Shown here one piece after another: positions 10,251 through 57,377 of a stretch of 64,000 nucleotides of DNA (positions within the stretch are counted from its first letter, which is position 1; every line of letters starts with the position of its first letter). Under the pieces are notes generated by a model that did not search any database, was not told the origin of the DNA, and was given only the letters and a program-made list of their open reading frames with translations. The DNA is from Escherichia phage nieznany: the sequence record NC_052659.1. One strand, given 5' to 3'. The translations under genes and the position numbers were made by a program.

Positions 10251-10617
10251 GATTGTTCACGGCAATCTGCGTGGAAAGAAGACAACTGTTTGCAGACACA
10301 TAAGCACGAGCTATTTTGTAAACATAGGCTTTCGTATTACAATTGTCCAGGATCGGAAGACTTTCGTCGATAGCATCTATAACACTAAACATCACATCTA
10401 AAACTTTAATGGTGAGTGTTGTATTTGTATCTTCGTAACCTTTTTCAATCCGACCTGAATAGAAAGCATAGTCCTCAACAGTTCGTCGTTTAAACTGCCG
10501 CATAAAATCGGAACCATCTGTAGCAGAATTGAACAAATTTTCAAAAAATACGTCCCATCCGGCAAAAAGGGCTGACAGCATGATTAAGTGATCTACAGAT
10601 TCATTTTCTTGTTTCAT
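10207..10617 (-). CDS. hypothetical protein
   Basis: 136-aa ORF. Confidence 0.5.
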   Translation of the reverse strand: MKQENESVDHLIMLSALFAGWDVFFENLFNSATDGSDFMRQFKRRTVEDYAFYSGRIEKGYEDTNTTLTIKVLDVMFSVIDAIDESLPILDNCNTKAYVYKIARAYVSANSCLLSTQIAVNNLANLFDEGETFYDN

Positions 10618-10625
10618 ATCCTCTC

Positions 10626-43360: not shown

Positions 43361-44302
43361 TGTAGAAGTTTCTTGTCATACTATGCAACAGAGCAAGGAG
43401 AAAAATATGATGGACGATTCAACCTTGGAGTAGTTTCTATCAACTTGCCTCTGATTGCTGCGGAAGCGAGAAGTAAAGGAGAATCTTTCACCGATCTTCT
43501 TAATAAACATATGGAGATAGCCTACGATGCTCACATGCTACGTGTAAACCGTATCAGACATACCAAAGCATCTGAAAACCCTATTCTTTTCATGGAAGGG
43601 GCTTTAGCGCGTTTAAATGCCAACGATGAAATTGGTGCTTTGTTTGAAGGTGGTTATGCTTCTATTAGTATTGGTTATGTAGGTCTTGCCGAAGCTTTGG
43701 AAATCCTTTATCCAGAGGAAAAAGATAAAAAGGAACTAGGTAAAAACATTCTGCAACATATGAAAGATGTGTGTGCTGTGTTTAAAGAACGATCTAAGTT
43801 GGCATTTAGTCTTTATGGAACTCCAGCAGAATCCTTGTGCTATAAATTTGCAACAGCTTTAAATGAAAAATATCCAGGTCTGGTAGAAAGAGACTATCTT
43901 ACTAATTCTTTTCATCAACCTGTATGGTTGGTAACAAATCCTTTTGAAAAATGGGATTATGAAGCAGGTTTTGCACAGATTAGCAATGGTGGTAACATAA
44001 GTTATGTCGAAACACCAAACTTAAAGAATAACTTAGAAGCTTTGGAGACTTTAGTAGACTACGCTTATGAACATATTCACTATTTTGGTATTAATCAGCC
44101 CGTGGATCAATGCTTTAAGTGTGGTTTTCATGGAGAATTTAAGGCAACGGCTAAAGGGTTTGAGTGTCCTAATTGTGGCAACCATGAAGAAGAAACTATT
44201 TCTGTAGTTAGACGTGTATCAGGGTATCTTTCTGCCCCTAATTCACGGCCTTATAACAAAGGTAAAATGCAGGAAGTTTTGCAAAGGGAGAAACATCTTT
44301 GA
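43361..44302 (+). CDS. nrdD: anaerobic ribonucleoside-triphosphate reductase NrdD, exon 2
   Basis: C-terminal Zn ribbon CFKCG..CPNCG and glycyl-radical motif RRVSGYL. Confidence 0.65.
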   Translation, partial: CRSFLSYYATEQGEKYDGRFNLGVVSINLPLIAAEARSKGESFTDLLNKHMEIAYDAHMLRVNRIRHTKASENPILFMEGALARLNANDEIGALFEGGYASISIGYVGLAEALEILYPEEKDKKELGKNILQHMKDVCAVFKERSKLAFSLYGTPAESLCYKFATALNEKYPGLVERDYLTNSFHQPVWLVTNPFEKWDYEAGFAQISNGGNISYVETPNLKNNLEALETLVDYAYEHIHYFGINQPVDQCFKCGFHGEFKATAKGFECPNCGNHEEETISVVRRVSGYLSAPNSRPYNKGKMQEVLQREKHL

Positions 44303-44989: not shown

Positions 44990-45595
44990 ATGCAACATAG
45001 TGTAGTAGTCAACATGCCGAATAGTGGGGATAAATCTTTTGGTGTTCCTGCTAAAAAAGTATGGAAAGCCCATTTTCATCTTACTTTATCTAACGTTAGT
45101 TCTGAAGAGTTGATGAAAGCAGCTAAGATTATTGGTGCCAAATGCACAACAATTGATTTACATCGGGATACAAAGTCTCAACGTGATCGTATGTTAACAA
45201 AGTATCAAAGCGATCTCGACACTACTTTAATGTTGCAGTGTGTAGAAAAACTTGAGAATGCAGGTTTCAATGTTGTTCGTTACAAACTGGAACGAATGTT
45301 TAAACATGTTGCCTGTGTTCTTTTCATGGATCTAAGTAAAGAAAATTATGGAGAAGTTCACATTAAGACTTCAGCAAGTGATCCCGAAGTAGAAACAAAC
45401 TTCTTCCGTATTTCTTCTAATGCTGAAGAAATTGATTACCGATTTTATAATGCTCGCTTATATTCCGCAGAAGATAAGTTGCGTTTCAATGAAGCGTATG
45501 ATATGCTCTTGAACAGTGGGATACAGATAAAAGGCTACCACATAGAACAAGTTGTGGTAGATAGTAACTTAAATCTTGATGCGTGGTGGGCCTAG
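44990..45595 (+). CDS. hypothetical protein
   Basis: 201-aa ORF after GAGGAGA RBS. Confidence 0.45.
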   Translation: MQHSVVVNMPNSGDKSFGVPAKKVWKAHFHLTLSNVSSEELMKAAKIIGAKCTTIDLHRDTKSQRDRMLTKYQSDLDTTLMLQCVEKLENAGFNVVRYKLERMFKHVACVLFMDLSKENYGEVHIKTSASDPEVETNFFRISSNAEEIDYRFYNARLYSAEDKLRFNEAYDMLLNSGIQIKGYHIEQVVVDSNLNLDAWWA

Positions 45596-45596
45596 T

Positions 45597-46253
45597 ATGA
45601 CAATAAAACATATCTCTTTTGATGTATGGAATACTCTTATTTCTGCCAATCAAAACTATGCAGATGCACGTACGCACACTATTGCTACATATGGTAGAAT
45701 GTCTGAACGTGCGGCAAAAGAAGCGTATAAAGATGCCAAAGAAATTATGGATAATGCTGCACTAAATGGGTGTGCAGAAGGTGTAGCATATGCATGGAAT
45801 ATGTTGGGAAGAAAGATAGGTTTAACCCCTGTAGAATCTGCACAAATGCGTTTTGAATGTGAGCAATGGTTTCTTAAATTTCCTCCACATATCGCTTTAG
45901 ATTTGCCAGTTTGTTTGCTATACTTGTCTGGTAAATATGATCTTAGTATTAAAAGCAATACTAATTTTATATCTGGGGATATTTTGCGTCGTGCTTGTAT
46001 GTTCGACAGTTGGAATTGTTTTGAATTTATGCATTTTTCAGACGAACATCTGTTATGTAAACCAGATCCTAGATTCTTTGTTAGGACCGCCACATATTCA
46101 AGCATTCCTTTGAAGGCTGAAGAGATTTTACATGTTGGGGACAGCGAAGAATTTGATGGTAAATGTGTTGACATAGGGATTAACTTCTGTCATATTAAGA
46201 ACCCTAACGACTTACTAGAGAAACTTAAAAGAGGAGAAATTGTAAATGCGTAA
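45597..46253 (+). CDS. HAD-superfamily hydrolase-like protein (non-canonical motif I)
   Basis: ISFDVWNTL in place of DxDGT, and C-terminal HVGDSEEFD (GDxxxD). Confidence 0.4.
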   Translation: MTIKHISFDVWNTLISANQNYADARTHTIATYGRMSERAAKEAYKDAKEIMDNAALNGCAEGVAYAWNMLGRKIGLTPVESAQMRFECEQWFLKFPPHIALDLPVCLLYLSGKYDLSIKSNTNFISGDILRRACMFDSWNCFEFMHFSDEHLLCKPDPRFFVRTATYSSIPLKAEEILHVGDSEEFDGKCVDIGINFCHIKNPNDLLEKLKRGEIVNA

Positions 46254-47073
46254 TCAAACTCAAATTTTTGCAAATAAATTTGATGACCTGGAAACTGCTA
46301 CTTTTGATATCAAAGATTATTCAAAATTGAAATTTGGTAGTAACCAAGCTGCGCGTCGTATGGGTAAAGAATTGGCACTTCAGTTTTTTGCTCAAGTGGC
46401 AATGAAACATATTGGGGAACAATTTGTTATCATTCCTTCTCCTTATAACCATGTGCATAATGCTGCAACAATGATGACAGATCATTTTATTAATTACTTT
46501 AATATGTTGCAAGCACAATATGATCAAGGTTGTTCAGCAGAACTGGATATTATTCATCGTAAAGTTAGCTATATCAACGATTATGGTTTCTTGGATAAAG
46601 CTAGTCGTAAGAAACTTATTGATGGGGATACATTCTACTGCAACAAAGAATTCTGGGGTGATAAGAAGCTTGTGTTCATTGATGATGTAAATATCACTGG
46701 AACTCATGAAGACAAACTGATTGAGATTCTTGATGAAAATCAAGTTAAAAATGATGTTTACTTCTTGTATTTTGCAAAATATGAAGGTAATCAAGCAGAT
46801 ACTGAAGCTAAACTGAATTTTAACTACATCAATACACCAGAAGCGTTTGTTAAAATGATTAATGAAGAACGTGATGCACAGTGTCTTGTTCGTCCTATTA
46901 AGTATCTTATGGGCCAAAATCACGAAGACTTCAAAATCATTCTTAGCCAATTGCCACACTACTATGTAGAGCAACTTTTCTTCGGATGTTTGGGAGAAGG
47001 TTACAACCGAATTTCAAAGTATGCTGAAAACTTTGAATTCTTGGATCGTTACACAAAACAACACATTCTGTAA
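46246..47073 (+). CDS. phosphoribosyltransferase (type I PRTase)-like protein
   Basis: KLVFIDDVNITGT matches PRTase PRPP-binding motif. Confidence 0.5.
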   Translation: MRNQTQIFANKFDDLETATFDIKDYSKLKFGSNQAARRMGKELALQFFAQVAMKHIGEQFVIIPSPYNHVHNAATMMTDHFINYFNMLQAQYDQGCSAELDIIHRKVSYINDYGFLDKASRKKLIDGDTFYCNKEFWGDKKLVFIDDVNITGTHEDKLIEILDENQVKNDVYFLYFAKYEGNQADTEAKLNFNYINTPEAFVKMINEERDAQCLVRPIKYLMGQNHEDFKIILSQLPHYYVEQLFFGCLGEGYNRISKYAENFEFLDRYTKQHIL

Positions 47074-47086
47074 TAAGGAGCTAAAA

Positions 47087-47560
47087 ATGCTTAAAATGAA
47101 AACAGGTAATCTTATTGATGCCGCTAAAGCAGGTGAAGTAACTGTTATTGCTCATTGTTGCAATTGTATGTGTAATATGGGGGCAGGAATTGCTCCGCAA
47201 ATTAAACGAGCATTCCCTTATGCATATGCGGCAGATTTAGACACAACGGCTGGTGATCAAAGTAAGTTAGGTTCTTTTAGTTTAGGGGTGCCAGACGAAC
47301 AATCAGACCCTTTGGTATATAATCTATACGGGCAATACCGTTACGGATACAATGCTAAAGGTCGTCAGTTGGACTATGATGCACTTTACGATGCACTAAT
47401 AGCTATGGCTAATGATTTGCTTCTCCGTGACCAAAAATGTAAGATCGGCTTACCTATGATTGGCGCTGGATATGCTGGAGGTAATTGGGCTATCATCCAA
47501 GTGATGATTGAAGAAACTTTAGTAAAAACAGGTCACGATGTGACTATTTATAAACTTTAA
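47087..47560 (+). CDS. macro-domain (ADP-ribose binding/processing) protein
   Basis: HCCNCMCNMGAGIA resembles macro-domain N..N..GgGv.A motif; start at ATG 47087 after AAGGAG. Confidence 0.55.
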   Translation: MLKMKTGNLIDAAKAGEVTVIAHCCNCMCNMGAGIAPQIKRAFPYAYAADLDTTAGDQSKLGSFSLGVPDEQSDPLVYNLYGQYRYGYNAKGRQLDYDALYDALIAMANDLLLRDQKCKIGLPMIGAGYAGGNWAIIQVMIEETLVKTGHDVTIYKL

Positions 47561-47572
47561 GAGGAGATTAGT

Positions 47573-47794
47573 ATGGGTGTTTTTGCAGGTATTGTTGCAG
47601 TGGTAAGCTTTTTTGTTATTGCTTTTATGCTTAGTTTGATTCCAGCTTGGTTACTGTTGCTGGCTTACAACTATGTTGCTGAAGTTATGGGTCATGCAGA
47701 TATCACTGTCCCAGTAACCTTCTGGACCGTGGTTTGTGTTTCGTTTATTCTGGCAGTATTACGAGGAATCTTTTCCTCTCATTCAACAAAATAA
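47573..47794 (+). CDS. small membrane protein
   Basis: 73 aa, two hydrophobic helices. Confidence 0.45.
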   Translation: MGVFAGIVAVVSFFVIAFMLSLIPAWLLLLAYNYVAEVMGHADITVPVTFWTVVCVSFILAVLRGIFSSHSTK

Positions 47795-47797
47795 GTG

Positions 47798-47856
47798 TTG
47801 ACATAGTTCTTAAAAAGAGTAAGATATATCACATGAAGCGGGGAATAGTTCCCCGC
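47798..47856 (+). promoter_or_regulatory. promoter (TTGACA..TAAGAT) plus leader stem-loop GCGGGGAATAGTTCCCCGC upstream of TerC gene
   Basis: Same stem-loop family as the leftward early array, here on plus strand; hairpin 47838-47856. Confidence 0.5.
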
Positions 47857-47873
47857 AAAGAGAGGAGAAAAGA

Positions 47874-48848
47874 ATGCAACTCGGTTTCCCAGTTATTGAT
47901 GTAGTTGTTTTAGTTGGTATTTTGGCATTGTCTATTGGTATCGATTTCTTTGGTCATAAAGAGAATAAAGAAATTGGAATTAAATCTGCTTTGCTTTGGT
48001 CTGTTTTTTGGATTGCTTTAGCTTTAGGATATTACGCATTCATTTGGGTAGAACATGGTAAAGAGTTTGCCGCGCTTTTCCTAAGTGGCTATGTGTTGGA
48101 AAAGAGTCTTTCTGTAGATAACCTGATGGTGTTCATGGCAATTTTTGCAAGCTTTGGAATTAAGAGCACACATCTCCAACATAAGATTTTACTTTGGGGG
48201 ATTGCAGGAGCCATTGTCTTCCGAGGTATTTTTGTTGCAGCAGGGACCGCTTTGTTTAACCTTCATTGGTCGGTCCAAGTGTTGTTCGGTTTGATTGTAG
48301 CTTGGTCTGCCGTGGCTATCATCAAAGGTGGTGACGAAGAAGAGGATATTGATTACTCTAAGCATTGGGCTGTTCGTTTAGTAGGTAAAGTTCTGCCTGT
48401 GCACAATGCACTAGATGGTGAAAAGTTCATTACCATTAAGAATGGTATTAAATATGCAACTCCTGCTCTTCTTTGTGTGTTTGTTATTGAGCTTACAGAT
48501 ATTGTCTTCTCTTTTGATTCAGTTCCGGCTGTGATCGGTGTGACACAAGAACCTCTGCTAGTTTATTCTGCAATGCTGATGGCTGTTCTTGGTTTACGTG
48601 CACTTTTCTTTGTGTTAAGTGTAGCTGTGAAATATCTGGTTCACTTAGAGAAAGCTGTTGCTGTGGTTCTGGTGTTTGTTGGTGCTAAACTTATGTATCA
48701 CCCGTTCGGTGAAACACTTCATGCCAAGTGGTCATTCCTCCCGCATGATATTTCCCCTAACGTAAGTCTGATGATTGTTCTAGGCACATTATCTCTTGGT
48801 GTTATTGCAAGCTTTATCTTCCCTGAAAAAGAAGAAGCTACTGTTTAA
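47874..48848 (+). CDS. TerC-family integral membrane protein
   Basis: 324 aa, multiple TM helices, conserved acidic residues in helices typical of TerC. Confidence 0.55.
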   Translation: MQLGFPVIDVVVLVGILALSIGIDFFGHKENKEIGIKSALLWSVFWIALALGYYAFIWVEHGKEFAALFLSGYVLEKSLSVDNLMVFMAIFASFGIKSTHLQHKILLWGIAGAIVFRGIFVAAGTALFNLHWSVQVLFGLIVAWSAVAIIKGGDEEEDIDYSKHWAVRLVGKVLPVHNALDGEKFITIKNGIKYATPALLCVFVIELTDIVFSFDSVPAVIGVTQEPLLVYSAMLMAVLGLRALFFVLSVAVKYLVHLEKAVAVVLVFVGAKLMYHPFGETLHAKWSFLPHDISPNVSLMIVLGTLSLGVIASFIFPEKEEATV

Positions 48849-48853
48849 TAAAT

Positions 48854-48880
48854 GAGCCTCCTTCGGGAGGCTATTTTATA
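48854..48880 (+). terminator. rho-independent terminator
   Basis: AGCCTCCTTCGGGAGGCT hairpin followed by ATTTTAT. Confidence 0.5.
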
Positions 48881-48890
48881 GGAGAGACTT

Positions 48891-49241
48891 ATGAGTAATT
48901 TTGATGAAATTCAAGAACTTGTTTGGGATTTATCTGGTGATGTGGATTACGTTTTAGATTATCTTTCAAAAGTTTACCCTGGGGTAAGCGTTATGATCGT
49001 GACCAAAGATCCAATTAATTTGCCTCCTAATGTGGTAGCTTGTTGTGGGAGTGGTTCAGGGGAAGTGGAGCCTGTATCCCGTTGGGAATTAACTAAAGCT
49101 GTTTCAAAACGAAACGGTGAAGTTTTGAATATTGATATCGAGCAAATATGGACTTCTCCAGCAGCTAAATGGAATGATCCGAATGGTTGGGACTTGTTCT
49201 TCTGGGATAATGAAACTGATGATGAGGTATTTTTAAAATGA
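48891..49241 (+). CDS. hypothetical protein
   Basis: 116-aa ORF. Confidence 0.45.
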   Translation: MSNFDEIQELVWDLSGDVDYVLDYLSKVYPGVSVMIVTKDPINLPPNVVACCGSGSGEVEPVSRWELTKAVSKRNGEVLNIDIEQIWTSPAAKWNDPNGWDLFFWDNETDDEVFLK

Positions 49242-49424
49242 AATACTTGTTGGTTGTGTTTGAAAATATTTGTTTTGCAATAGGGTTGTTTGTTGTAATT
49301 TTTGTATTGACAAGCGTAATCAACGGCAGTAAAGTGAGTTTATACCGAGATGGAGAGCAACTTTATTGCTTCTCTGGAGATTTCAAACACAGATGTATTA
49401 ATAGCCAAAACGAGGAAAGCAAAT

Positions 49425-49862
49425 ATGAAAAAACTAGCCCTGATTTTAATTGGTTGTATCTTTTTAACAGCTTGCGAGGATGAGACAAATCCTGCACAAT
49501 ACCAACAACCTCCTCAACAATACGCTCAACAAGGATCTGACGGAGATACAACTATTATCAACAATGGTGGCGGTTCTAGTAGTAGCGGTGTTGGTGAGTT
49601 TGCTACAGGTATGTTGTTAGGGCATATGATGAGTGGCGGTAGTAATCGTAGCAGTGGGGATTATAACGATAACAGAACGATTATTAATAAGCATTATAAT
49701 ACACCTAAACCGAAAACTAATTTTTATGGTAAGCCTAAACAAGAGATAAAAACTTATGAAAAGCCGAGACAAACTTTTAAAACAAATAGTAGCTATACAA
49801 CTCGTAAATCTTACAATAGCCCTTTAAGTAAAAAGAGTTCATCTCGTAGCAAGCGACGTTAA
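49425..49862 (+). CDS. lipoprotein (Gly/Ser/Asn-rich)
   Basis: MKKLALILIGCIFLTAC signal peptide with lipobox; start moved to ATG 49425. Confidence 0.5.
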   Translation: MKKLALILIGCIFLTACEDETNPAQYQQPPQQYAQQGSDGDTTIINNGGGSSSSGVGEFATGMLLGHMMSGGSNRSSGDYNDNRTIINKHYNTPKPKTNFYGKPKQEIKTYEKPRQTFKTNSSYTTRKSYNSPLSKKSSSRSKRR

Positions 49863-49876
49863 TAAGGAGAAAAACA

Positions 49877-50470
49877 ATGACAATTTCTATTCGTACTTCC
49901 ATTACAGGTGTTAAAAGTTTGCCTAATGCTTTGCAAATCACACGTGCTTTGAGGGATACGTTCTCTGCTGTGGATGAGCATAAGATGCTCGATAATCTCT
50001 CAAATTGGCCCTATTTTCATTATTTTAAAAATGAAGACGACGAGTTTATAGACGCTGTTTCTTACGGTTATGATTTCGGTAAGGAGGTTTCTCCTGAAGA
50101 ATTTGTAGTTATGGTGTTCCCAAACGGTTTGCCTACTCGCAGTAAACGTAAAAAAGGACCAAAAAACAAGAAACGTGCTACTAATAAAGCTACCATTTTC
50201 TTTACTGATGGCACACAATATACGATTAAAGATTTTGAAGAGGTATCTTATACAGCAGGTGGGAATCTTTCTTTCTACACCATCAAAAAACAAAACTCTA
50301 CGTTCAGCCATGTTTCTAACATGATTGAAATGTTAGTAGAAGATATTGAAAGCGTAGCTGTGTTAGGTATGCATAAAAGCTTTTTAATTACAAATATTTC
50401 AGATTTCAGTGCACGTTTATCTGGTCCTGATTTTGAAACCACGACCACGCATTTCACTTTTAAGGTGTAA
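49877..50470 (+). CDS. hypothetical protein
   Basis: 197-aa ORF, TAAGGAGA RBS. Confidence 0.45.
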   Translation: MTISIRTSITGVKSLPNALQITRALRDTFSAVDEHKMLDNLSNWPYFHYFKNEDDEFIDAVSYGYDFGKEVSPEEFVVMVFPNGLPTRSKRKKGPKNKKRATNKATIFFTDGTQYTIKDFEEVSYTAGGNLSFYTIKKQNSTFSHVSNMIEMLVEDIESVAVLGMHKSFLITNISDFSARLSGPDFETTTTHFTFKV

Positions 50471-50473
50471 GTT

Positions 50474-51064
50474 ATGTATACCGAGAGAGACTTGCAACTC
50501 TTGTGGTGGGAAGTGATGCAGGAAATAAAAGAAGATTTTCCTGTTTACTACAACATGTTACGTGAAGCAGGATATAAAGCTTGTGTTAGAAACAAAGTGA
50601 ATAACTCTTTCGGTTGGTGCAACTACCGAGATAAAATTGTTGTTGTAAATTGGCACTTGCATAAGAACTCTACAAGAGATATGATCGTGGATACAATGAA
50701 GCACGAAATTGCTCATGCTATTGATGGTTGTATGGGTAAGTTTAGTAGACACGGTGCTCATTGGCAAAAACTGGCAGCAGAGTTAGGGGCTAATCCTAAA
50801 GCCACTTCCAAAGAGCCGTTGAACCACGAATATAAATATGTTCTTGTTCTGGTAGATAGGTTTGCGACAAGATGTGTTAGAGGTTATAATCGTAAACCTA
50901 ATCGCATGTACCCAGGTAAGCAACCTAATATGTGGTTGAAATCAGATAAAGAAGGGACCGAAGGAAAATTATGGTTGTATAAATGGGACGATTGGGTTAA
51001 AGTAGCTAAAGAGTACGGTGTTTCACCATATATAAGAGATGCAGAAGAGGAGAATGAAGAATGA
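50474..51064 (+). CDS. SprT-like zinc metalloprotease domain protein
   Basis: MKHEIAHAI HExxH plus downstream HGAHWQ. Confidence 0.5.
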   Translation: MYTERDLQLLWWEVMQEIKEDFPVYYNMLREAGYKACVRNKVNNSFGWCNYRDKIVVVNWHLHKNSTRDMIVDTMKHEIAHAIDGCMGKFSRHGAHWQKLAAELGANPKATSKEPLNHEYKYVLVLVDRFATRCVRGYNRKPNRMYPGKQPNMWLKSDKEGTEGKLWLYKWDDWVKVAKEYGVSPYIRDAEEENEE

Positions 51065-52173
51065 CAAGTCCATTTTTAAAAGCAGCTACTGGCGGTCAGA
51101 AGAAGCCTGAAATGAGCGTATTTGCTGCAACAACAGATGCAAGTAAATCTGTATTCGCTCCAAGCGTGTTAGATGCCAGTCCTGTTTATGCACCAGCGGC
51201 ACCGCAAGAAGTTCCAGTTTTGCCTTCTATGACCCGACAAGAGATCGAAGAGATTGGGGCAGAGGCAGGAACAACCTTGCGTTCCTTGAATGCCGAGGTA
51301 TTAAAACATCAACGTAGTAATCAAGGCGATCAGATGAGTGAACGACTCACAGCTTTGATTAAACAGGCAAAACAACTTGATCCAAACTCTATTAAACAAA
51401 GCAAGGGTATTACTAAACTCATTAAAAAAGTTATGGGTATGAAAGAAGATCTGTTTGGGGAGTTTGATAATGTTAATAACCGTATTGAAGAGTTGGTAAA
51501 AAACCTTCAAATGGATATTCGCAAAGAAGAAGATTCCTTGGTATATCTTGAAAAGCTACATCAAGCTATTGGACAATATGCTGCAAGTTTGAACCGAGAT
51601 ATGCAGCTTCTAACAGCAACCTATGAAAAAGAAGAACAAGCTTTGGCTGCTCTTCCAGAAGATGCAGTAGAACAGCGACAAGTGATCCGAGATACTTTGG
51701 ATCTTCTGGAGATTCGTATTGCAGATTTAAAAGCATTGCGCCTACTGTGTGTCCAAATGGGACCGCGTGTACAAGGTATGCAAAAAGTTTCTGCAAGCTT
51801 AATGCGATCTGCGCGTAACATAGTAAATAATGTTATTCCTGCTTACTCTGCTAACTTCTCAATGTATATCGAGAGCTTACGTCAAATGAAAGCAGCAGAG
51901 ACGCAGAATAACGTTCTTGATGAATTTAACCTGGCAATTAAACTGGGTAGCGATCTTGCCACACAGAATCAGATCGAAGCAGCAGCACTGGCTAACCGTC
52001 AAGTGTTGGATATTGAAACTCTGCGTCACGATCAGGAAAACTTGGTTAAGATGTTGGAAGAAACTAACCGCATCAATACGGAAGCCCGTGCTGCTCGTGT
52101 TGATTATATTAATGAAGTTCAATCTTTGGAAGACGGGATGGTAGCTGCTGTGAAACGAGGGCTTGGTAAATGA
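51061..52173 (+). CDS. coiled-coil protein, possibly TelA-like (unverified)
   Basis: 370 aa, size and helical character compatible with TelA family; no motif-level proof. Confidence 0.4.
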   Translation: MTSPFLKAATGGQKKPEMSVFAATTDASKSVFAPSVLDASPVYAPAAPQEVPVLPSMTRQEIEEIGAEAGTTLRSLNAEVLKHQRSNQGDQMSERLTALIKQAKQLDPNSIKQSKGITKLIKKVMGMKEDLFGEFDNVNNRIEELVKNLQMDIRKEEDSLVYLEKLHQAIGQYAASLNRDMQLLTATYEKEEQALAALPEDAVEQRQVIRDTLDLLEIRIADLKALRLLCVQMGPRVQGMQKVSASLMRSARNIVNNVIPAYSANFSMYIESLRQMKAAETQNNVLDEFNLAIKLGSDLATQNQIEAAALANRQVLDIETLRHDQENLVKMLEETNRINTEARAARVDYINEVQSLEDGMVAAVKRGLGK

Positions 52174-52370
52174 GAATCCGTATCTATATAATTGATGAGG
52201 ACATTGGTGTCCGTTATGATGACGAAAAACGATTCGCGCCGATGGGAGGCATATATCCCCCAAGTGTTCTAGCAGTTTGTCGTGATTGTTATATTTATGA
52301 AGGTTGTCGTAACTTCCGTAAATTCGAACTCCTTGCAGATATTGACTTCAATGAGGAGGAGGAGGAGTAA
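52170..52370 (+). CDS. small acidic protein
   Basis: 66-aa ORF, Cys pairs and poly-E tail. Confidence 0.4.
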   Translation: MRIRIYIIDEDIGVRYDDEKRFAPMGGIYPPSVLAVCRDCYIYEGCRNFRKFELLADIDFNEEEEE

Positions 52371-52543
52371 TGAAAATATTACGAGTGAATATTGAAACTG
52401 CTTGGTGTGGATGCAATGAGGTTGTGGATATCGAAATTGAAGATGATATGTCTCAAGAGGATATAGAAGATCTTGCACACGAAACCTTTCAGGACTATTG
52501 TAATTACGGGTTCCATATTTTAGAGGAGGAAGAGGATGTTTAA
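52370..52543 (+). CDS. micro-protein (57 aa, acidic)
   Basis: ATG overlapping upstream stop; CGC pair. Confidence 0.35.
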   Translation: MKILRVNIETAWCGCNEVVDIEIEDDMSQEDIEDLAHETFQDYCNYGFHILEEEEDV

Positions 52544-52739
52544 CTACGATAACGACCCTAATATTATCCAGTTAACCCGACAAGAACTGATCACAATCAT
52601 TGAAGATGCTTTTATTGATGGCTGGAATACACAAGACAATGATTGGGGTGGACCCGAAGCTTTTCTGGAACATCATAAAGCTTATGGAGAATTTTGTGAA
52701 ACCACTGTAGCTCTTGATAATCTGAAGGAGGGTTTGTAA
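52536..52739 (+). CDS. hypothetical protein
   Basis: 67-aa ORF. Confidence 0.4.
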   Translation: MFNYDNDPNIIQLTRQELITIIEDAFIDGWNTQDNDWGGPEAFLEHHKAYGEFCETTVALDNLKEGL

Positions 52740-53302
52740 TGGGTTGTTTTAGCTTTTTGTGCAAAGAATCGGGCAAAGCTGCCCTTTCTACTTCTTTCGA
52801 CGGATCACCTTGTTATCTCTTTCTTTTGAAGGACGGTGTTGTTATTGAAGAGATGTATGGCAACTATGATAGTTATGGTTGTGTTTTCTCTGGAAAGGAG
52901 GATGAAAATGGCGTTCGTGAACGGTTCGAATGGGCTATGGATTGGGGTAAGGTTTGTGATTTAATGCATTCCTCGAATCCAAGGGATGGTATCGCTATGG
53001 TGCTGGAAGAGTATTTTACAGGTGAAATCCCTACAGAACAATCTGACGGAGATCCTAACCAAGGTTGGGGTGATGGCGAAGAAGATCCAGATTGTTTTTT
53101 CAGCACAGAAAAGAATAAGTTTAAACGTGTTGACAACCCTTATCACAAAGTGCATAATACTCTCATTGAAACAGAAGATGACAAGATGGAAATTGAAGAA
53201 GATGATCCTCTTGTAACACTTCCTATAAGTGAGTTACAAAAGATCACTAAGGAAGCTTACGATTTGGGCTTCAAAATTGGTAGAGGAGGTATGCGTGTTT
53301 AG
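52739..53302 (+). CDS. hypothetical protein
   Basis: 187-aa ORF. Confidence 0.45.
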   Translation: MGCFSFLCKESGKAALSTSFDGSPCYLFLLKDGVVIEEMYGNYDSYGCVFSGKEDENGVRERFEWAMDWGKVCDLMHSSNPRDGIAMVLEEYFTGEIPTEQSDGDPNQGWGDGEEDPDCFFSTEKNKFKRVDNPYHKVHNTLIETEDDKMEIEEDDPLVTLPISELQKITKEAYDLGFKIGRGGMRV

Positions 53303-53573
53303 ATTCAATATTCAAGAAGAAAAAAGTCAGGATTTACCTATTGCTTTCGAAGATCTTGACGTAGGGGCCACATTCATGTATTATGATGCCTATGAAGACG
53401 CAGGGTTGGATACCTACCGTAACTTGGTGTTCATTAAAAATTCCACAAACAGTGCGATTTGTATTAATGGATCACTAGCACAACGAGGCTATACTCATTG
53501 CATCCCACCAGATACAAATATGGTGGAAGTAGATTTAGAAGTTACCAATATTACACTTAAGAAGGAGAAATAA
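53295..53573 (+). CDS. small protein, paralog A (flanks vWA gene)
   Basis: GTG start; shares ..DLDVG.TF.Y..A..E.GLD.. and EV.L.VT.ITLK with ORF 54595..54864. Confidence 0.45.
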   Translation: MFRFNIQEEKSQDLPIAFEDLDVGATFMYYDAYEDAGLDTYRNLVFIKNSTNSAICINGSLAQRGYTHCIPPDTNMVEVDLEVTNITLKKEK

Positions 53574-53574
53574 T

Positions 53575-54369
53575 ATGTCCGAGAAAATCAGCCTGAAAAA
53601 ACGTCAAGAAAACCTTGCTTTCTCTCTGAAAAAGAATAAGAACCTGAATGAAGGTAAGATTGTTCTTCGTGTAGCATGTGCTCTAGATATTTCTGGTAGT
53701 ATGCATGGTCTATATTCTAGTGGGGTAGTGAGTGATTTTGTAGGTAAACTGCTTCCTTTTGGTATGCTGTTCGACGATAATCAACAAATTGATATGTGGG
53801 CCTTCAATACGAGTTCCCAAGAGCTTACTCCAGCAACAGCAGACGTTTACGATGACTATGTTGGTAAATGTATGCGTAATGTTCGTATCGGAGGTGGAAC
53901 AAATTACGCCCCTGTAATGGCAGATATCTACGATGAGTATTTTGGCACTGTTACCAAATATATTACCACTAAACAAGTGGTACAAGAGGAGGCTCCAAAG
54001 AAAGGCTTCTTTAATCGTCTGCTTGGTAAAACTGAAACAGTGTCTGTAGAGCGTGAAAAAGTTGTAGCTGTATCTGAACCAGGTGCTGACGTTACCCCTG
54101 GTGTTGTATTCTTCCAGACGGATGGTGAGAATGGTGATCCTAGTGCTGTTCGTCGTCTTATTGAAGAGAATAAGAATAAACCTATTTATTGGTTCATGGT
54201 TGGCGTTGGTAATGAGAAGTTTGGCTTCCTGAAAGAACTGGCAAATGCTTATGATAATGTTGGTTTTATTGGCATTAAAGATTTAGACTTGACAGATTCA
54301 GAGCTTTATGACAAACTCTTATCTGAAGAGTTCGGAGAGTGGGTTGTTAAAGTAGGTGCTAAAAAATGA
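53575..54369 (+). CDS. von Willebrand factor A domain protein (TerY-like)
   Basis: MIDAS motif ALDISGSM; N-terminal EKISLKK shared with TerD gene. Confidence 0.55.
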   Translation: MSEKISLKKRQENLAFSLKKNKNLNEGKIVLRVACALDISGSMHGLYSSGVVSDFVGKLLPFGMLFDDNQQIDMWAFNTSSQELTPATADVYDDYVGKCMRNVRIGGGTNYAPVMADIYDEYFGTVTKYITTKQVVQEEAPKKGFFNRLLGKTETVSVEREKVVAVSEPGADVTPGVVFFQTDGENGDPSAVRRLIEENKNKPIYWFMVGVGNEKFGFLKELANAYDNVGFIGIKDLDLTDSELYDKLLSEEFGEWVVKVGAKK

Positions 54370-54614
54370 TCGACGAGCTTGCCTCTCAAGTCGTAGAAAA
54401 TTATTGGCGCGAGAGAGAAGCTTTCATTATGCGCAGTCTCAAAGAGTATTTCATTGGGACTGTGCGAATGGAAGATATTGTAAGTAGAGTAGAGATTCAT
54501 GTATGGCCCGATTATGAAGAATGGGTTGACAAAGAAAATGAAAATGCTATAATTCTTCGTATATACAAACCGGAGATAACATTAGGAGGAAGAAGTGTTA
54601 AACTTCGAAATTGA
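54366..54614 (+). CDS. hypothetical protein
   Basis: 82-aa ORF. Confidence 0.4.
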   Translation: MIDELASQVVENYWREREAFIMRSLKEYFIGTVRMEDIVSRVEIHVWPDYEEWVDKENENAIILRIYKPEITLGGRSVKLRN

Positions 54615-54864
54615 TGAGCAAAAAGTAAATAAACGATGCCTTACCATTAAAGATTTGGATGTAGGAGATACTTTCGTCTATGAAAATGCATTTGACGAAA
54701 ATGGTTTAGACCTTAGTGAAATCATTGTTTATTTAAAAGTAGATGATGGGGAAAATGATTATTCTGCTGTAGAACTAAACCATCATGCACAATTAGTATC
54801 AATCCAAAACACATCTAAGCTTTTGGAAGTAGAATTGACTGTAACTGGTATTACACTTAAATAA
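54595..54864 (+). CDS. small protein, paralog B
   Basis: GTG start; paralogous to 53295..53573. Confidence 0.45.
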   Translation: MLNFEIDEQKVNKRCLTIKDLDVGDTFVYENAFDENGLDLSEIIVYLKVDDGENDYSAVELNHHAQLVSIQNTSKLLEVELTVTGITLK

Positions 54865-54879
54865 TAGAGGAGACAAAAG

Positions 54880-55482
54880 ATGACTGATAAAATTTCCCTG
54901 AAAAAAGGCTCTAGCGAAAAAATTTCCCTGAAGAAAGTTGCTCCGGCTCTGAAAGAACTGCGCCTGGAATTCTCTTGGAAATCTGATTCTAAACTGGATC
55001 TGGATGTAAGTGCACTGGTTTGTCGTCACAATGCCGCTGGCAATCCTGAAATGCTGTCTGCACGTCATCTGGTTTGCTATGCTAACAAGTTTGATCCTGA
55101 ACGTTCTACCTTCGCTGGTGACGATGTTCGTGATGGGACTGGCAGCATGGAGCAGATTGATATTACTCTGGCTAAAATCTCTCCTGATGCACAAGAGATT
55201 GCCTTTGTTCTGACCATTGATGATGATACAGGTCTGAAACGTTTTGGTCATGCTTCTGAAGGTATGCTTAAAATCTTCGACTCCGAGCGTAATGTGGAAA
55301 TTCTGGATTTTGACTTCCTGGCTCCTGAAGTAGCTGGCAACACAATCTGCCACGTGGCTTCCCTGGTTCGTGAAGATGGAGAATGGAAGCTGAAAGCATA
55401 TGGTGTAGGTAAAGCTGGTCTGGATATTTGCGATGTGGTGATGGCCTTCGGTGGTAAAAAAGAATGGTATGAATGTCCATAA
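54880..55482 (+). CDS. TerD-domain protein
   Basis: KISLKK..LKELRLEFSWK..LDLDVSALV ... IAFVLTIDD pattern typical of TerD family; strongly CTG/CGT-biased codons. Confidence 0.7.
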   Translation: MTDKISLKKGSSEKISLKKVAPALKELRLEFSWKSDSKLDLDVSALVCRHNAAGNPEMLSARHLVCYANKFDPERSTFAGDDVRDGTGSMEQIDITLAKISPDAQEIAFVLTIDDDTGLKRFGHASEGMLKIFDSERNVEILDFDFLAPEVAGNTICHVASLVREDGEWKLKAYGVGKAGLDICDVVMAFGGKKEWYECP

Positions 55483-55582: not shown

Positions 55583-56104
55583 TTGCTGATAAAAAACTTT
55601 GTAACAGTTGCGTTACTATCCTTAACTGCTTTTACATTTACACCTGTTGTGGCGAAAGCCGAAGCTGCAAACGTAAAAACCGCTAAAGTAGTTCACAAAT
55701 GTACAAAGCAATATAATGATAAAATTCTATTAGCTTGTGCAATTTACGCAGAAGGTCGCGGTCTGGGTAAAAAAGGAATGAATGCCGTTGGGAATGTGGT
55801 AATCAACAGAAGAAATGATGCCTACTTCCCTAACACAGTCAAGGGAGTCTTGTTCCAGAAAGGGCAATTCTCATATGCGAAAACTTTTAACGTGACAGAG
55901 AAAGATAAGTGGCAGGAAGCAAAAGCAATAGCGGAGCGTTTACTTTATTTAGAGAAACATTTTCCTGAATTGCGGTCTGTTTTAGATGTTACTAAAGGTG
56001 CTCTATACTTCAAGAAACGGAATATAAGGACACACTGGGAGCGTGATATGCGTCTTGTTTATCGAGATAAAGTGCATGGTTTCTATCTACCAAAGGGGAG
56101 TTAA
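55583..56104 (+). CDS. SleB-like cell-wall hydrolase (Hydrolase_2 family) with signal peptide
   Basis: LACAIYAEGRG..GMNAVGNVVINRRNDAYFPNTVKGVLFQKGQFS matches SleB-type conserved block; TTG start after AAAGGAGG. Confidence 0.6.
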   Translation: MLIKNFVTVALLSLTAFTFTPVVAKAEAANVKTAKVVHKCTKQYNDKILLACAIYAEGRGLGKKGMNAVGNVVINRRNDAYFPNTVKGVLFQKGQFSYAKTFNVTEKDKWQEAKAIAERLLYLEKHFPELRSVLDVTKGALYFKKRNIRTHWERDMRLVYRDKVHGFYLPKGS

Positions 56105-56805: not shown

Positions 56806-57369
56806 ATGATTTATTATATTACTCCCTATCTGACAGGAAATATCGGCAAGGCTATCAATGAAGCTATTGCCGTTCTTCCAGATGATAGTTGGGTGTGCTT
56901 AAGAGATACCGATACAATGTTCCTCCTGCCTGATCAACCATCTATGCTTGAAGAGCTTATTATGTCAAACCCGCCTTTTGATGTAATAGGTGCAACTTGT
57001 AACAGGTTAGGTAGTGGTTATCAGCTTTTCTCTAACCAAATTAACGATGATCCAAATATTCTAAACCATATAGAATATGCTAAGATTGCAAGAGAATATC
57101 ATAAAGTGAGTGTTGAAGAAGTTCCTTTCGGAACACCTCTGGCAGGTTTCTTTTTGCTTTTTAGAAAATCATTGTGGAATGAAATTCCTTTCGAAGAAAA
57201 ATCTATCCAATTCGACCTAATTTTCTCTCGCACTTTACATGAAAAAGGAAAAAGGTTAGGATTGATGCGGGGAATGTATCTGTTTCACATTTACAGATTA
57301 GGTCAAACAAATCCTCAACGGTCTATACATCATTTATTACACTGTCACGATCACAGTAAAACTATCTAG
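56806..57369 (+). CDS. glycosyltransferase-like protein (GT-A-like, tentative)
   Basis: DTD acidic motif (WVCLRDTDTMFL) after hydrophobic strand. Confidence 0.35.
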   Translation: MIYYITPYLTGNIGKAINEAIAVLPDDSWVCLRDTDTMFLLPDQPSMLEELIMSNPPFDVIGATCNRLGSGYQLFSNQINDDPNILNHIEYAKIAREYHKVSVEEVPFGTPLAGFFLLFRKSLWNEIPFEEKSIQFDLIFSRTLHEKGKRLGLMRGMYLFHIYRLGQTNPQRSIHHLLHCHDHSKTI

Positions 57370-57377
57370 GAGAGAAA

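What the first reader, a model, noticed from the sequence alone, without database searches (positions are those of the whole stretch)
45597..55482. Phage-borne Ter-like module: TerD, TerC, vWA (TerY-like) with PRTase, HAD-like, macro-domain, SprT-like and lipoprotein genes
A contiguous rightward block encodes a TerD-domain protein (54880-55482), a vWA protein with MIDAS motif (53575-54369), a TerC-family membrane protein (47874-48848), a type I PRTase-like protein (46246-47073), a HAD-like hydrolase whose motif I reads DVWNT instead of DxDGT (45597-46253), a macro domain (47087-47560), a SprT-like HExxH protease (50474-51064), a lipoprotein and a 370-aa coiled-coil protein that may be TelA-like. 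TerD, TerC, TelA and TerY are reported to co-occur with phosphoribosyltransferases and HAD phosphatases in Ter-dependent stress-response neighbourhoods proposed to make a nucleoside-like metabolite. Finding this combination in a lytic-phage replication region, with an altered HAD catalytic motif, suggests a phage-adapted and possibly uncharacterised variant.
Basis: partly seen in the sequence, partly recalled or inferred. Interest (0 to 1): 0.8.

Follow-up and report, generated by a model that had tools for sequence, protein, structure and literature searches.

The report
Known phage-borne Ter (tellurite-type) gene module
This stretch of a phAPEC8-like E. coli phage does carry TerC, TelA, TerD, a TerF-type vWA protein and a phosphoribosyltransferase/HAD enzyme pair, but the block is already sequenced, annotated and discussed for many phages, and its role in infection has not been tested.

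Summary
HMM searches place every named gene at the stated coordinates: HAD-like, PRTase_3, Macro, TerC, SprT-like, TelA, vWA-TerF-like and TerD.

The window is a Phapecoctavirus, 99.5% identical to Escherichia phage ESCO13. Sixty-one phage records carry at least 80% of the block, and several annotate its genes as tellurite resistance, VWA, TerD or phosphoribosyltransferase. Phage Ter systems with PRTase and HAD enzymes have been described in the literature, with superinfection exclusion as the proposed role.

- **HAD motif:** DVWNT is not a phage adaptation. Trp at Asp+2 is invariant in 31 aligned homologues. It also occurs in two rhizobial plasmid copies and in archaeal PDB entry 2om6.
- **HAD–PRTase_3 pair:** the two genes were adjacent in all 27 loci examined. 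At least two Ter genes lay within 10 kb in 15 of the 25 phage loci.
- **Macro domain:** it is a homologue of T4 Tk.4/AdfM, an anti-DarTG2 factor, not a Ter component.
- **SprT-like gene and several small ORFs:** these are lineage-specific fillers, absent from phi92.
- **vWA protein:** it is TerF-type, not TerY-type.

The block is therefore a mosaic: an old phage-resident Ter core, the enzyme pair, and unrelated counter-defence genes. Function is inferred only. Novelty: already known. Interest about 0.3.

The parts
44990..45595 (+). 201-aa ORF directly upstream, 1 nt before the HAD gene. It lies outside the finding and is not a conserved Ter component. It has a predicted tandem ferredoxin-like fold and matches PADLOC models named AbiEi.
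   Evidence: phrog_22504, function unknown. PADLOC AbiEi PDLC02277 E 4.7e-13 over the full length. AF2 pLDDT 82. No convincing fold match. Relatives are fused to NUDIX or HD_4. Absent from phi92.
45597..46253 (+). HAD-IA-like hydrolase. Motif I is FDVWNTL: the nucleophile Asp is present and Asp+2 is replaced by Trp. Motifs II (SNTN), III (K155) and IV (GD182xxxD187) are intact.
   Evidence: Its stop overlaps the PRTase start by 8 nt.
46246..47073 (+). Type I phosphoribosyltransferase of family PRTase_3 (ComF-like), with an intact PRPP loop LVFIDDVNITGTHE.
   Evidence: Pfam E 2.9e-42. 57 invariant columns in alignment A2. AF2 pLDDT 93. Foldseek finds only remote HGPRT and ComF matches.
47087..47560 (+). 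Macro domain protein, a homologue of T4 Tk.4/AdfM (DarG2-like). It is most likely an independent counter-defence gene.
   Evidence: 37% identity, E 7e-22 to T4 Tk.4.
47573..47794 (+). 73-aa protein with two hydrophobic segments. Conserved in phi92.
47798..47825 (+). Sigma-70-like promoter match (TTGACA-16-TAAGAT, 10 of 12) upstream of TerC.
   Evidence: This is a consensus match only.
47874..48848 (+). TerC/Alx-family polytopic membrane protein.
   Evidence: Pfam E 3e-40. NCBIfam TIGR03718 318.6 bits, above its cut-off. Multiple hydrophobic segments.
48855..48872 (+). GC-rich hairpin (AGCCTCC-TTCG-GGAGGCT) followed by a T-rich tail, 7 nt after the TerC stop. Terminator-like.
48891..50470 (+). 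Four small ORFs of unknown function: 116 aa; 81 aa with an N-terminal hydrophobic segment; a 145-aa lipoprotein (49425-49862, lipobox LTAC); and 197 aa. Only some have phi92 counterparts.
50474..51064 (+). SprT-like zinc metallopeptidase (HEIAH). Lineage-specific. It overlaps the TelA start by 4 nt.
   Evidence: Pfam E 4.2e-9. Present only in loci L001, L014 and L015, and absent from phi92.
51061..52173 (+). TelA-family protein.
   Evidence: Pfam E 3.2e-33 over profile positions 13-327 of 332. phrog_5890 'tellurite resistance'.
52170..53302 (+). Four tightly packed ORFs of 66 aa, 57 aa (DUF7167), 67 aa and 187 aa. The 187-aa protein is 76% identical to phi92 gp175.
53130..53158 (+). Sigma-70-like promoter match (TTGACA-17-CATAAT, 11 of 12) ahead of the first phrog_11278 gene and the vWA gene.
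53295..53573 (+). 92-aa protein of phrog_11278, paralogue a, directly before the vWA gene.
   Evidence: 34% identity, E 2e-14 to paralogue b.
53575..54369 (+). vWA domain protein of the TerF C-terminal type, with MIDAS motif DISGS.
   Evidence: Pfam PF10138 E 1.6e-37. No PDB sequence match.
54366..54614 (+). 82-aa ORF, absent from phi92. It contains the promoter match listed next.
54526..54553 (+). Perfect sigma-70 consensus (TTGACA-16-TGcTATAAT, 12 of 12), about 40 nt before the second phrog_11278 gene and TerD.
54595..54864 (+). 89-aa protein of phrog_11278, paralogue b, directly before TerD.
54880..55482 (+). TerD-domain protein. The canonical Ca2+-binding motif GDNxTGxGxGDDE reads GDDVRDGTGSMEQ.
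   Evidence: Pfam E 3.2e-28. PDB 2kxt E 1.5e-15. Alignment A4.

Best explanation
The block is the Ter-type module that phAPEC8/phi92-like myoviruses (Stephanstirmvirinae) and many other large phages carry. It is a mosaic of three kinds of genes.

1. Ter core. This consists of a TerC/Alx-type membrane transporter, TelA, a TerF-type vWA protein with an intact MIDAS site, and one TerD protein. By homology with bacterial Ter systems, these are inferred to assemble at the inner face of the cytoplasmic membrane and to alter metal/ion flux and envelope state.

2. An obligatorily paired, translationally coupled enzyme unit, HAD-PRTase_3. The PRTase is inferred to attach ribose-5-phosphate from PRPP to an unknown acceptor. 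The HAD enzyme is inferred to process the product, probably by removing the 5'-phosphate. The family-wide Trp in place of the general acid/base Asp leaves its exact chemistry open. The product would be the 'nucleoside-like metabolite' proposed for Ter systems.

3. Unrelated genes inserted between them. These are an AdfM-like macrodomain (anti-DarTG2), a SprT-like peptidase and small ORFs.

Sigma-70-like promoter matches suggest expression from host RNA polymerase early in infection. The most likely payoff is protection of the infected cell against superinfecting phages, colicins and envelope or metal stress. This mirrors the phage-inhibition and colicin-resistance phenotypes of the plasmid ter operon.

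Shown here: gene identities, conservation, linkage and motif states. Inferred: complex formation, the enzymatic reactions, timing and phenotype.
For: Family assignments.

Identity to known phages: 99.5% to ESCO13, and 61 records cover at least 80% of the block.

Conservation:
- The same set (HAD, PRTase_3, Macro, TerC, TelA, vWA, TerD) is present in phi92 at 47-81% protein identity.
- Klebsiella phage KP13-16 carries it without the Macro and in shuffled order.
- Metagenomic phage contigs show the order TerC-x-TerD-x-vWA-HAD-PRTase_3.

Linkage:
- HAD lies directly upstream of PRTase_3 in 27 of 27 loci.
- At least two Ter genes lie within 10 kb in 15 of the 25 phage loci.

Enzymes look active:
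- The PRPP loop DDVxITGTHE is invariant, and the type I PRTase fold is predicted at pLDDT 93.
- The HAD nucleophile Asp and motifs II-IV are invariant.

Ancient residence in phages rather than recent capture from the host:
- TerD is about 30% identical to Klebsiella TerD.
- PRTase_3 has no homologue on enterobacterial ter plasmids.

Expression signals: consensus promoter matches before TerC, vWA and TerD, and a hairpin after TerC.

Literature:
- The same reading of phage Ter systems is given in PMC7824862 (section 3.4.10) and PMC6141743.
- The Phi and PacB phenotypes of the R478 ter cluster (Whelan et al. 1995) are cited in PMC9796965 and PMC8386662.
Against: - No experiment on any phage Ter gene was found in six literature searches on Ter genes and this phage subfamily.
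- The mechanism of bacterial Ter systems is itself unresolved (PMC8115787, PMC12054061).
- TerB, the extra TerD paralogues, and the ATP-grasp and C-C lyase enzymes of bacterial Ter loci gave no Pfam match in the block.
- The HAD-PRTase_3 pair also occurs without Ter genes within 10 kb in 10 of 25 phage loci and on rhizobial plasmids. The functional link to the Ter core is therefore statistical, not obligatory.
- The TerD Ca2+ motif is partly degenerate in this lineage.
- The overall number of promoter-like matches is not above shuffled controls: 52 found against 42.9 +/- 6.8.
- Trp at Asp+2 argues against a textbook phosphomonoesterase mechanism for the HAD enzyme.
Confidence: 0.5

Rival explanations
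1. Metal-homeostasis helper. The phage TerC/Alx-type protein, with TerD, vWA and TelA as accessory metal-binding or scaffolding parts, exports or delivers Mn2+/Ca2+-type cations. This would keep the infected cell's metal balance, or the metalation of envelope enzymes, favourable for replication and lysis. It would have no role in excluding competitors.
For: - TerC scores above the NCBIfam cut-off for 'TerC/Alx family metal homeostasis membrane protein'.
- The vWA MIDAS motif is intact.
- TerD is homologous to the Klebsiella TerD structure 2kxt. That canonical TerD binds Ca2+ is from my own knowledge.
- K. pneumoniae terC contributes to zinc resistance (PMC12054061).
- The block sits between a metallo/radical nucleotide reductase (nrdDG) and a cell-wall hydrolase.
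Against: - The TerD acidic Ca2+ motif is partly lost in this lineage.
- This reading does not explain the tight association with a PRTase/HAD enzyme pair.
- No metal phenotype is known for any phage Ter gene.
Confidence: 0.22
2. Counter-defence island. The whole stretch 44990-55482 is mainly a collection of anti-immunity genes. HAD-PRTase_3 would make or destroy a nucleotide-derived immune signal or replenish a depleted metabolite. The Ter proteins would blunt membrane-acting abortive-infection effectors.
For: - The Macro is an AdfM (anti-DarTG2) homologue (bioRxiv 10.1101/2025.11.20.689424; PMC13309987).
- The upstream 201-aa ORF matches PADLOC models named AbiEi. Its relatives are fused to NUDIX or HD_4 nucleotide hydrolases.
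- Phages are known to carry orphan antitoxin-like enzymes (PMC11825919).
Against: - AdfM-like and AbiEi-labelled genes accompany HAD-PRTase_3 only in the Stephanstirmvirinae-type loci, not in the other phage loci. Their adjacency looks lineage-specific.
- None of TerC, TelA, vWA, TerD, HAD or PRTase_3 matches any PADLOC model.
- No known immune signal is made or broken by a type I PRTase plus a HAD enzyme.
Confidence: 0.12
3. Auxiliary 'tellurite resistance' genes that raise the host's tolerance to tellurite or other toxic oxyanions. This is what database product names and some genome papers imply.
For: - Product names in deposited records.
- The suggestion is made in PMC11256456.
Against: - The phage is strictly lytic, so any benefit to the host is short-lived.
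- TerB and the other determinants of terZABCDEF gave no Pfam match in the block, and only one TerD-family gene is present in the window.
- PMC9796965 and PMC11256456 themselves note that incomplete phage sets are unlikely to confer tellurite resistance.
Confidence: 0.04

Closest known systems
Bacterial Ter-dependent stress-response systems (Anantharaman, Iyer & Aravind 2012; terZABCDEF/terXYW loci of IncHI2 plasmid R478, E. coli O157 and K. pneumoniae pK2044)
   Same: - TerC, TerD, TelA and a Ter-type vWA domain occur together with a PRTase and a HAD enzyme. PF15610 and PF10138 are the matching Pfam families.
- That these two families were defined from Ter neighbourhoods is from my own recollection.
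- The proposed logic is a membrane complex plus a nucleoside-like metabolite (PMC7824862, PMC8115787).
   Different: - No Pfam match in the block to TerB, TerW/X/Y, ATP-grasp or C-C lyase families, and only one TerD paralogue in the window.
- TerD is only about 30% identical to Klebsiella TerD and has a partly degenerate Ca2+ motif.
- PRTase_3 has no homologue on enterobacterial ter plasmids.
- The genes sit in a lytic phage genome.
Phage Ter modules already described: Klebsiella phage ZCKP1 (a Phapecoctavirus), Acinetobacter jumbo phage ME3, Caulobacter jumbo phages, PhiPsa374, phiKp34
   Same: - ZCKP1 carries this very block at 98.5% identity, and its paper notes four tellurite-resistance-related genes (PMC6141743).
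[quoted passage not shown]
- TerC, TerD, TerF and TelA sets are reported in PhiPsa374 and phiKp34 (PMC9796965, PMC8386662).
   Different: Nothing essential. This window adds only detail: motif states, linkage statistics, and which neighbours are not Ter components.
AdfM (anti-DarT factor macrodomain): T4 Tk.4 and chimallivirus AdfM
   Same: - The window Macro is 37% identical to T4 Tk.4 over 124 residues, E 7e-22.
- It matches DarG models and TARG1-class macro structures.
   Different: - Activity against DarT2 is untested for this protein.
- In phi92 the homologue is longer, 238 aa.
PDB 2om6, Pyrococcus horikoshii 'probable phosphoserine phosphatase' (HAD-IA)
   Same: It is the best solved relative of the HAD family, E 1.1e-18 over the full length, and it shares the FDVWNTL motif I with Trp at Asp+2.
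   Different: It is an archaeal structural-genomics entry. I know of no functional data for it, and no PRTase_3 partner was examined.
Bacillus subtilis yceCDEFGH-type operons (TerD paralogues, TerC-family YceF, TelA-like YceH); from my own knowledge, not tested here
   Same: A Ter set built from TerD, TerC and TelA without TerB. Phage records even name the TerD homologue 'general stress protein 16U/YceD'.
   Different: The bacterial operon has three TerD paralogues and no PRTase_3/HAD pair. The phage has one TerD and a separate TerF-type vWA protein.

Membership tests
Ter system (sensu Anantharaman/Aravind) | TerD-domain protein | tested here: met
   PF02342 E 3.2e-28. 2kxt E 1.5e-15.
Ter system (sensu Anantharaman/Aravind) | TerC-family membrane protein | tested here: met
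   PF03741 E 3e-40. TIGR03718 318.6 bits against a 246.4 cut-off.
Ter system (sensu Anantharaman/Aravind) | TelA and a Ter-type vWA domain in the same neighbourhood | tested here: met
   PF05816 E 3.2e-33 and PF10138 E 1.6e-37. Both lie within 4.5 kb of TerD and TerC.
Ter system (sensu Anantharaman/Aravind) | Linked PRTase and HAD 'biosynthetic' enzymes | tested here: met
   PF15610 E 2.9e-42. The HAD family is confirmed by profile. Linkage to Ter genes in 15 of 25 phage loci.
Ter system (sensu Anantharaman/Aravind) | Phage, colicin or tellurite resistance phenotype | not testable with these tools
   Needs expression or knock-out experiments.
Classical terZABCDEF operon | TerB plus several TerD paralogues (TerZ/A/D/E/F) | tested here: not met
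   Only one TerD-family ORF is present in the 64-kb window. No protein in the block matched a TerB family in Pfam.
TerY / TerY-P triad | TerY-type vWA protein with adjacent kinase and PP2C phosphatase | tested here: not met
   The vWA protein matches the TerF C-terminal family PF10138; generic VWA PF00092 scores only E 2.5e-3. No kinase or PP2C domain was found in the block.
HAD phosphatase (canonical) | Motif I DxDx(T/V): nucleophile Asp and general acid/base Asp+2 | tested here: not met
   The nucleophile D9 is present, but Asp+2 is an invariant Trp (FDVWNTL) in 31 of 31 sequences.
HAD superfamily | Motifs II (S/T), III (K) and IV (acidic pair) and the HAD fold | tested here: met
   S120, K155, D182 and D187 are invariant. 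The profile matches HAD structures 2om6 and 2hoq.
Type I phosphoribosyltransferase | PRPP-binding loop and PRTase Rossmann-like fold | tested here: met
   LVFIDDVNITGTHE, with D146, D147, T151, G152 and T153 invariant. The AF2 model at pLDDT 93 matches HGPRT and ComF structures at probability 1.0, though with low TM-scores of 0.28-0.49.
Type I phosphoribosyltransferase | Catalytic transfer from PRPP to a defined acceptor | not testable with these tools
   The acceptor is unknown. There is no close solved or characterised relative.
AdfM / DarG2-like macrodomain | Sequence homology to T4 Tk.4 and to DarG macrodomains | tested here: met
   E 7e-22 to Tk.4. PADLOC DarG 1.6e-10 and NCBIfam DarG 9.9e-9, though far below its full-length cut-off because the DarG C-terminal domain is absent.
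AdfM / DarG2-like macrodomain | [quoted passage not shown] | not testable with these tools
   Needs a delta-macro phage on DarTG2 hosts, or an enzyme assay.
SprT-like metallopeptidase | HExxH zinc site within the SprT-like domain | tested here: met
   PF10263 E 4.2e-9. HEIAH is in the translation.
2H phosphoesterase (considered for ORF 44990-45595) | Two HxT/S motifs on a two-lobed 2H fold | tested here: not met

The most novel reading that the evidence does not exclude
The HAD(Trp+2)-PRTase_3 pair is a self-contained, mobile two-enzyme cassette, found in phages and on rhizobial plasmids. It would make a still unidentified ribosylated small molecule by non-canonical HAD chemistry. In large lytic phages this molecule would be the signal or cofactor that drives a TerC-TelA-vWA-TerD membrane machine, used in phage-versus-phage or phage-versus-host conflict.
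Probability: 0.25. Interest if true: 0.7.

Novelty: already known. Interest (0 to 1): 0.3.

Why it matters
Ter genes are among the most widespread bacterial gene sets of unknown mechanism, and their presence in many large lytic phages is an open puzzle. This window does not change that puzzle, because the same block is already public, annotated and discussed.

The follow-up adds practical clarity for anyone who wants to test it:
- **Conserved core:** TerC, TelA, TerF-type vWA, TerD and the inseparable HAD-PRTase_3 pair.
- **Passengers:** the AdfM-like macro, the SprT-like gene and the small ORFs.
- **HAD motif:** the odd motif is a family signature, not decay.

Phapecoctavirus and phi92-like coliphages grow on laboratory E. 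coli. They are therefore convenient systems for the first genetic and metabolomic test of a Ter system.

Tried and rejected

2. The PADLOC 'AbiEi' label for that ORF could not be corroborated. There is no Pfam AbiEi hit and no winged helix in the model, so I kept it only as a lead.

3. Anantharaman et al. 2012 (PMC4104200) is not held. Its content is cited through papers that summarise it.

4. Sequence searches of the PDB with PRTase_3 and the vWA protein found nothing useful.

5. I considered recent capture of the module from host ter plasmids and rejected it. PRTase_3 has no enterobacterial plasmid homologue, and TerD is about 30% identical to Klebsiella TerD.

6. The promoter scan gives individually strong matches, but the total count is not above shuffled controls. 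Early expression therefore remains an inference.

7. The longer 'HAD-IA' annotation of 417 aa on a Rhizobium plasmid has no extra Pfam domain. Its N-terminal 200 residues look like an over-extended start.

8. I considered whether the Macro, PRTase and HAD form one ADP-ribose-type pathway. This is not supported. The Macro accompanies the pair only in the Stephanstirmvirinae-type loci, and it belongs to the AdfM family.

Full report
**What the window is.** Megablast of 45597-55482 against 50,697 phage records finds the whole block at 99.5% identity in Escherichia phage ESCO13. It is 96-99% identical in dozens of other Phapecoctavirus genomes, including phAPEC8_ev052, ZCKP1 and SF1-1. Sixty-one records cover at least 80% of the query. 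Several of those records already name the genes 'TelA-like', 'tellurite resistance', 'integral membrane protein TerC', 'TerD family protein', 'VWA domain-containing protein', 'macro domain-containing protein', 'putative orotate phosphoribosyltransferase' or 'hydrolase'. The block lies between nrdD/nrdG and a cell-wall hydrolase followed by glycosyltransferases.

**Check of the observation.** Assignments are from Pfam unless stated.

| Gene | Coordinates | Evidence |
|---|---|---|
| PRTase_3 | 46246-47073 | E 2.9e-42 |
| TerC | 47874-48848 | E 3e-40; NCBIfam TerC/Alx 318.6 bits, above its cut-off |
| TelA | 51061-52173 | E 3.2e-33 |
| vWA-TerF-like | 53575-54369 | E 1.6e-37; MIDAS DISGS in the translation |
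| TerD | 54880-55482 | E 3.2e-28; E 1.5e-15 to Klebsiella TerD 2kxt |
| SprT-like | 50474-51064 | E 4.2e-9; HEIAH |
| Macro | 47087-47560 | E 1.5e-4, at the gathering score; E 6e-13 to macrodomain 5e3b |
| HAD-like | 45597-46253 | below the Pfam cut-off alone; a 31-sequence profile matches HAD structure 2om6 at E 1.1e-18 |

Two corrections apply. The vWA protein is the TerF C-terminal type, not TerY. The 370-aa coiled-coil protein is a clear TelA. A scan of all ORFs of the 64-kb window with profiles built here finds only one copy of each family.

**The HAD motif.**
- In an alignment of 31 homologues down to 27% identity, D9, W11 and T13 are invariant. So are motif II (S120 in SNTN), motif III (K155) and motif IV (G181-D182 ... 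D187).
- The same FDVWNTL is present in the copies on Sinorhizobium and Rhizobium plasmids.
- It is also present in the best solved relative, Pyrococcus horikoshii 2om6.
- Trp at the Asp+2 position is therefore the signature of a conserved, evidently functional HAD subfamily. It is neither decay nor a phage-specific change.
- In canonical HAD phosphatases Asp+2 is the general acid/base (established knowledge; Burroughs et al. 2006). Its absence means that phosphomonoester hydrolysis is an assumption for this subfamily, not a given.

**The PRTase.** The protein belongs to a very well conserved family. Homologues are 45-65% identical and there are 57 invariant columns. The PRPP loop DDVxITGTHE is intact. 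An AlphaFold model (pLDDT 93) has a type I PRTase core plus a C-terminal helical extension. It resembles solved structures only remotely: HGPRTs and H. pylori ComF, with TM-scores of 0.28-0.49. There is no PDB sequence match. The acceptor substrate cannot be inferred.

**Linkage.** The HAD stop overlaps the PRTase start by 8 nt. I examined 27 loci:
- public phages;
- metagenomic contigs;
- 16 IMG/VR loci;
- two rhizobial plasmids.

The HAD gene lies directly upstream of PRTase_3 in all 27. At least two of TerC, TelA, vWA and TerD lie within 10 kb in 15 of the 25 phage loci. A recurrent order is TerC-x-TerD-x-vWA-HAD-PRTase_3. In the other ten phage loci and on the plasmids, the pair stands without Ter genes nearby. 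In Caulobacter phage CcrPW, TerD lies about 28 kb away.

By tblastn, PRTase_3 occurs in 155 phage records and TerD in 147. The host genera largely coincide; the main exception is Rhizobium phages, which were not detected with this TerD query. The pair is thus an autonomous cassette that is frequently, but not always, joined to the Ter core.

**Core versus passengers.** I compared the block with phi92 (Justusliebigvirus).
- phi92 shares HAD, PRTase_3, Macro, the 73-aa membrane protein, TerC, TelA, the 187-aa protein, one phrog_11278 protein, vWA and TerD. Identities are 47-81%.
- phi92 lacks the SprT-like gene, the upstream 201-aa ORF, DUF7167, and the 116-, 66- and 82-aa ORFs. tblastn finds only one phrog_11278 gene there.
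- In the wider sample, the Macro sits next to the pair only in the Stephanstirmvirinae-type loci. The SprT-like gene occurs only in the closest relatives.

**The Macro.** The protein is 37% identical over 124 residues (E 7e-22) to T4 Tk.4. It also matches DarG models. Tk.4 was recently named AdfM and shown to protect T4 from DarTG2 (bioRxiv 10.1101/2025.11.20.689424). Chimallivirus AdfM removes DarT2-made ADP-ribose from DNA (PMC13309987). The Macro is therefore best read as an independent counter-defence gene that happens to sit in the block.

**State of the Ter proteins.**
- TerD is about 30% identical to Klebsiella TerD.
- The canonical acidic motif GDNxTGxGxGDDE reads GDDVRDGTGSMEQ here, and GEDVRDGVGQMEQ in phi92.
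- Metagenomic phage TerDs keep the canonical form. The loop alignment is approximate.
- PRTase_3 has no tblastn match on enterobacterial ter plasmids; only Rhizobium, Sinorhizobium and Hymenobacter plasmids match.
- Together these results argue that the module has long resided in phages and was not recently captured from the host's ter island.

**Operon structure.**
- Genes from 50474 to 55482 are packed with overlaps of 1-20 nt or gaps of at most 15 nt.
- A 12-of-12 sigma-70 consensus with an extended -10 TG lies at 54526-54553, before the second phrog_11278 gene and TerD.
- An 11-of-12 match lies at 53130-53158, before the first phrog_11278 gene and vWA.
- A 10-of-12 match lies at 47798-47825, before TerC.
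- A GC-rich hairpin with a T-rich tail follows TerC.
- The total count of promoter-like matches is not above shuffled controls. Early expression by host polymerase is therefore an inference.

**What is known.**
- Iyer et al. 2021 (PMC7824862, section 3.4.10) describe Ter systems in jumbo 'and certain other related smaller tailed phages', including a version with PRTases and HAD enzymes. They propose a role in competition with superinfecting phages.
- The ZCKP1 paper (PMC6141743) notes four tellurite-resistance-related genes in this very genus and makes the same suggestion.
- PhiPsa374 (PMC9796965) and phiKp34 (PMC8386662) carry terC, terD, terF and telA sets.
- I found no experimental study of any phage Ter gene.
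- The mechanism of bacterial Ter systems is itself unresolved (PMC8115787, PMC12054061).

**Most likely mechanism.**
- Shown: gene identities, motif states, conservation and linkage.
- Inferred, step 1: TerC, TelA, vWA and TerD form a membrane-proximal assembly that changes ion or metal flux and envelope state.
- Inferred, step 2: PRTase_3 ribosylates an unknown acceptor from PRPP.
- Inferred, step 3: the HAD enzyme processes the product to a nucleoside-like molecule that feeds or signals to that assembly.
- Inferred, step 4: the system acts early in infection and protects the infected cell from competing phages, colicins or stress.
- Rivals: a pure metal-homeostasis role, a counter-defence role for the whole island, and literal tellurite resistance. 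The last is the least likely for a lytic phage with an incomplete set.

**Verdict.** The Ter reading is correct in outline. The claim of a novel, phage-adapted variant is not supported. The finding is already known at the genomic level, so interest is modest. The residual value is that this coliphage lineage is a tractable place to test what a Ter system and its HAD-PRTase_3 cassette actually do.

Noticed in passing
window 44990-45595 (+): A 201-aa ORF sits directly upstream of the HAD gene. It has invariant HxHxT and ExHxK motifs and a predicted tandem ferredoxin-like fold. It matches two PADLOC models named AbiEi (E 5e-13, full length), but no Pfam AbiEi family and no solved structure. Its family has 254 representatives at E<=1e-3, and includes members fused to an N-terminal NUDIX or HD_4 domain. 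It may be another orphan antitoxin-like or nucleotide-binding counter-defence gene.
   Followed up: partly
window 53295-53573 and 54595-54864 (+): Two paralogous small proteins (phrog_11278, 34% identical, E 2e-14) each sit immediately upstream of a Ter gene, vWA and TerD respectively. Each is preceded by a near-perfect sigma-70 promoter match. tblastn finds only one copy in phi92, before vWA. They may be adaptors or chaperones of the Ter proteins.
   Followed up: partly
window 54880-55482 (+), residues about 80-95: The TerD Ca2+-binding motif is partly degenerate in Phapecoctavirus and phi92. GDDVRDGTGSMEQ replaces GDNxTGxGxGDDE, with three acidic positions lost. Metagenomic phage TerDs (L005, L006) keep the canonical motif.
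   Followed up: partly
window 42567-44302 (+): The anaerobic ribonucleotide reductase gene nrdD appears split. An I-HmuI/HNH-like homing endonuclease ORF (42567-43208) precedes the C-terminal NRDD/glycyl-radical half (43331-44302). phi92 annotates a spliced nrdD at the same place.
   Followed up: partly
L008 (Sinorhizobium garamanticum plasmid NZ_CP120375.1) 9370-10840 and flanks: A bacterial copy of the HAD(FDVWNTL)-PRTase_3 pair lies among genes for a glycosyltransferase, a radical SAM enzyme, an NAD-dependent epimerase, an SMR transporter, a GMC oxidoreductase and a UbiA prenyltransferase. From my own knowledge, this resembles PRPP-dependent polyprenyl-phospho-pentose (DPA-like) pathways. 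The acceptor of PRTase_3 may therefore not be a nucleobase.
   Followed up: no
L009 (Rhizobium leguminosarum plasmid NZ_CP022669.1) 8731-9984: The annotated 417-aa 'HAD-IA family hydrolase' has no domain in its first 200 or so residues. It probably starts near LISHISFDVWNTL, which would make it a mis-called start codon in the public record.
   Followed up: partly
window 56806-58061 (+) and beyond: Glycosyltransferase genes follow the endolysin-like cell-wall hydrolase (55583-56104); the closely related SF1-1 annotates four at this position. The second (57378-58061) has a weak sub-threshold match to the TET-associated glycosyltransferase family (E 1.3e-3). Whether these modify DNA or host surface glycans was not examined.
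   Followed up: no
L010 (phi92) 9784-10944: Between nrdG and the HAD gene, where the window has the 74-aa and 201-aa ORFs, phi92 carries a 386-aa AAA/STAND-like ATPase (gp190). This spot looks like a variable accessory-gene slot.
   Followed up: no
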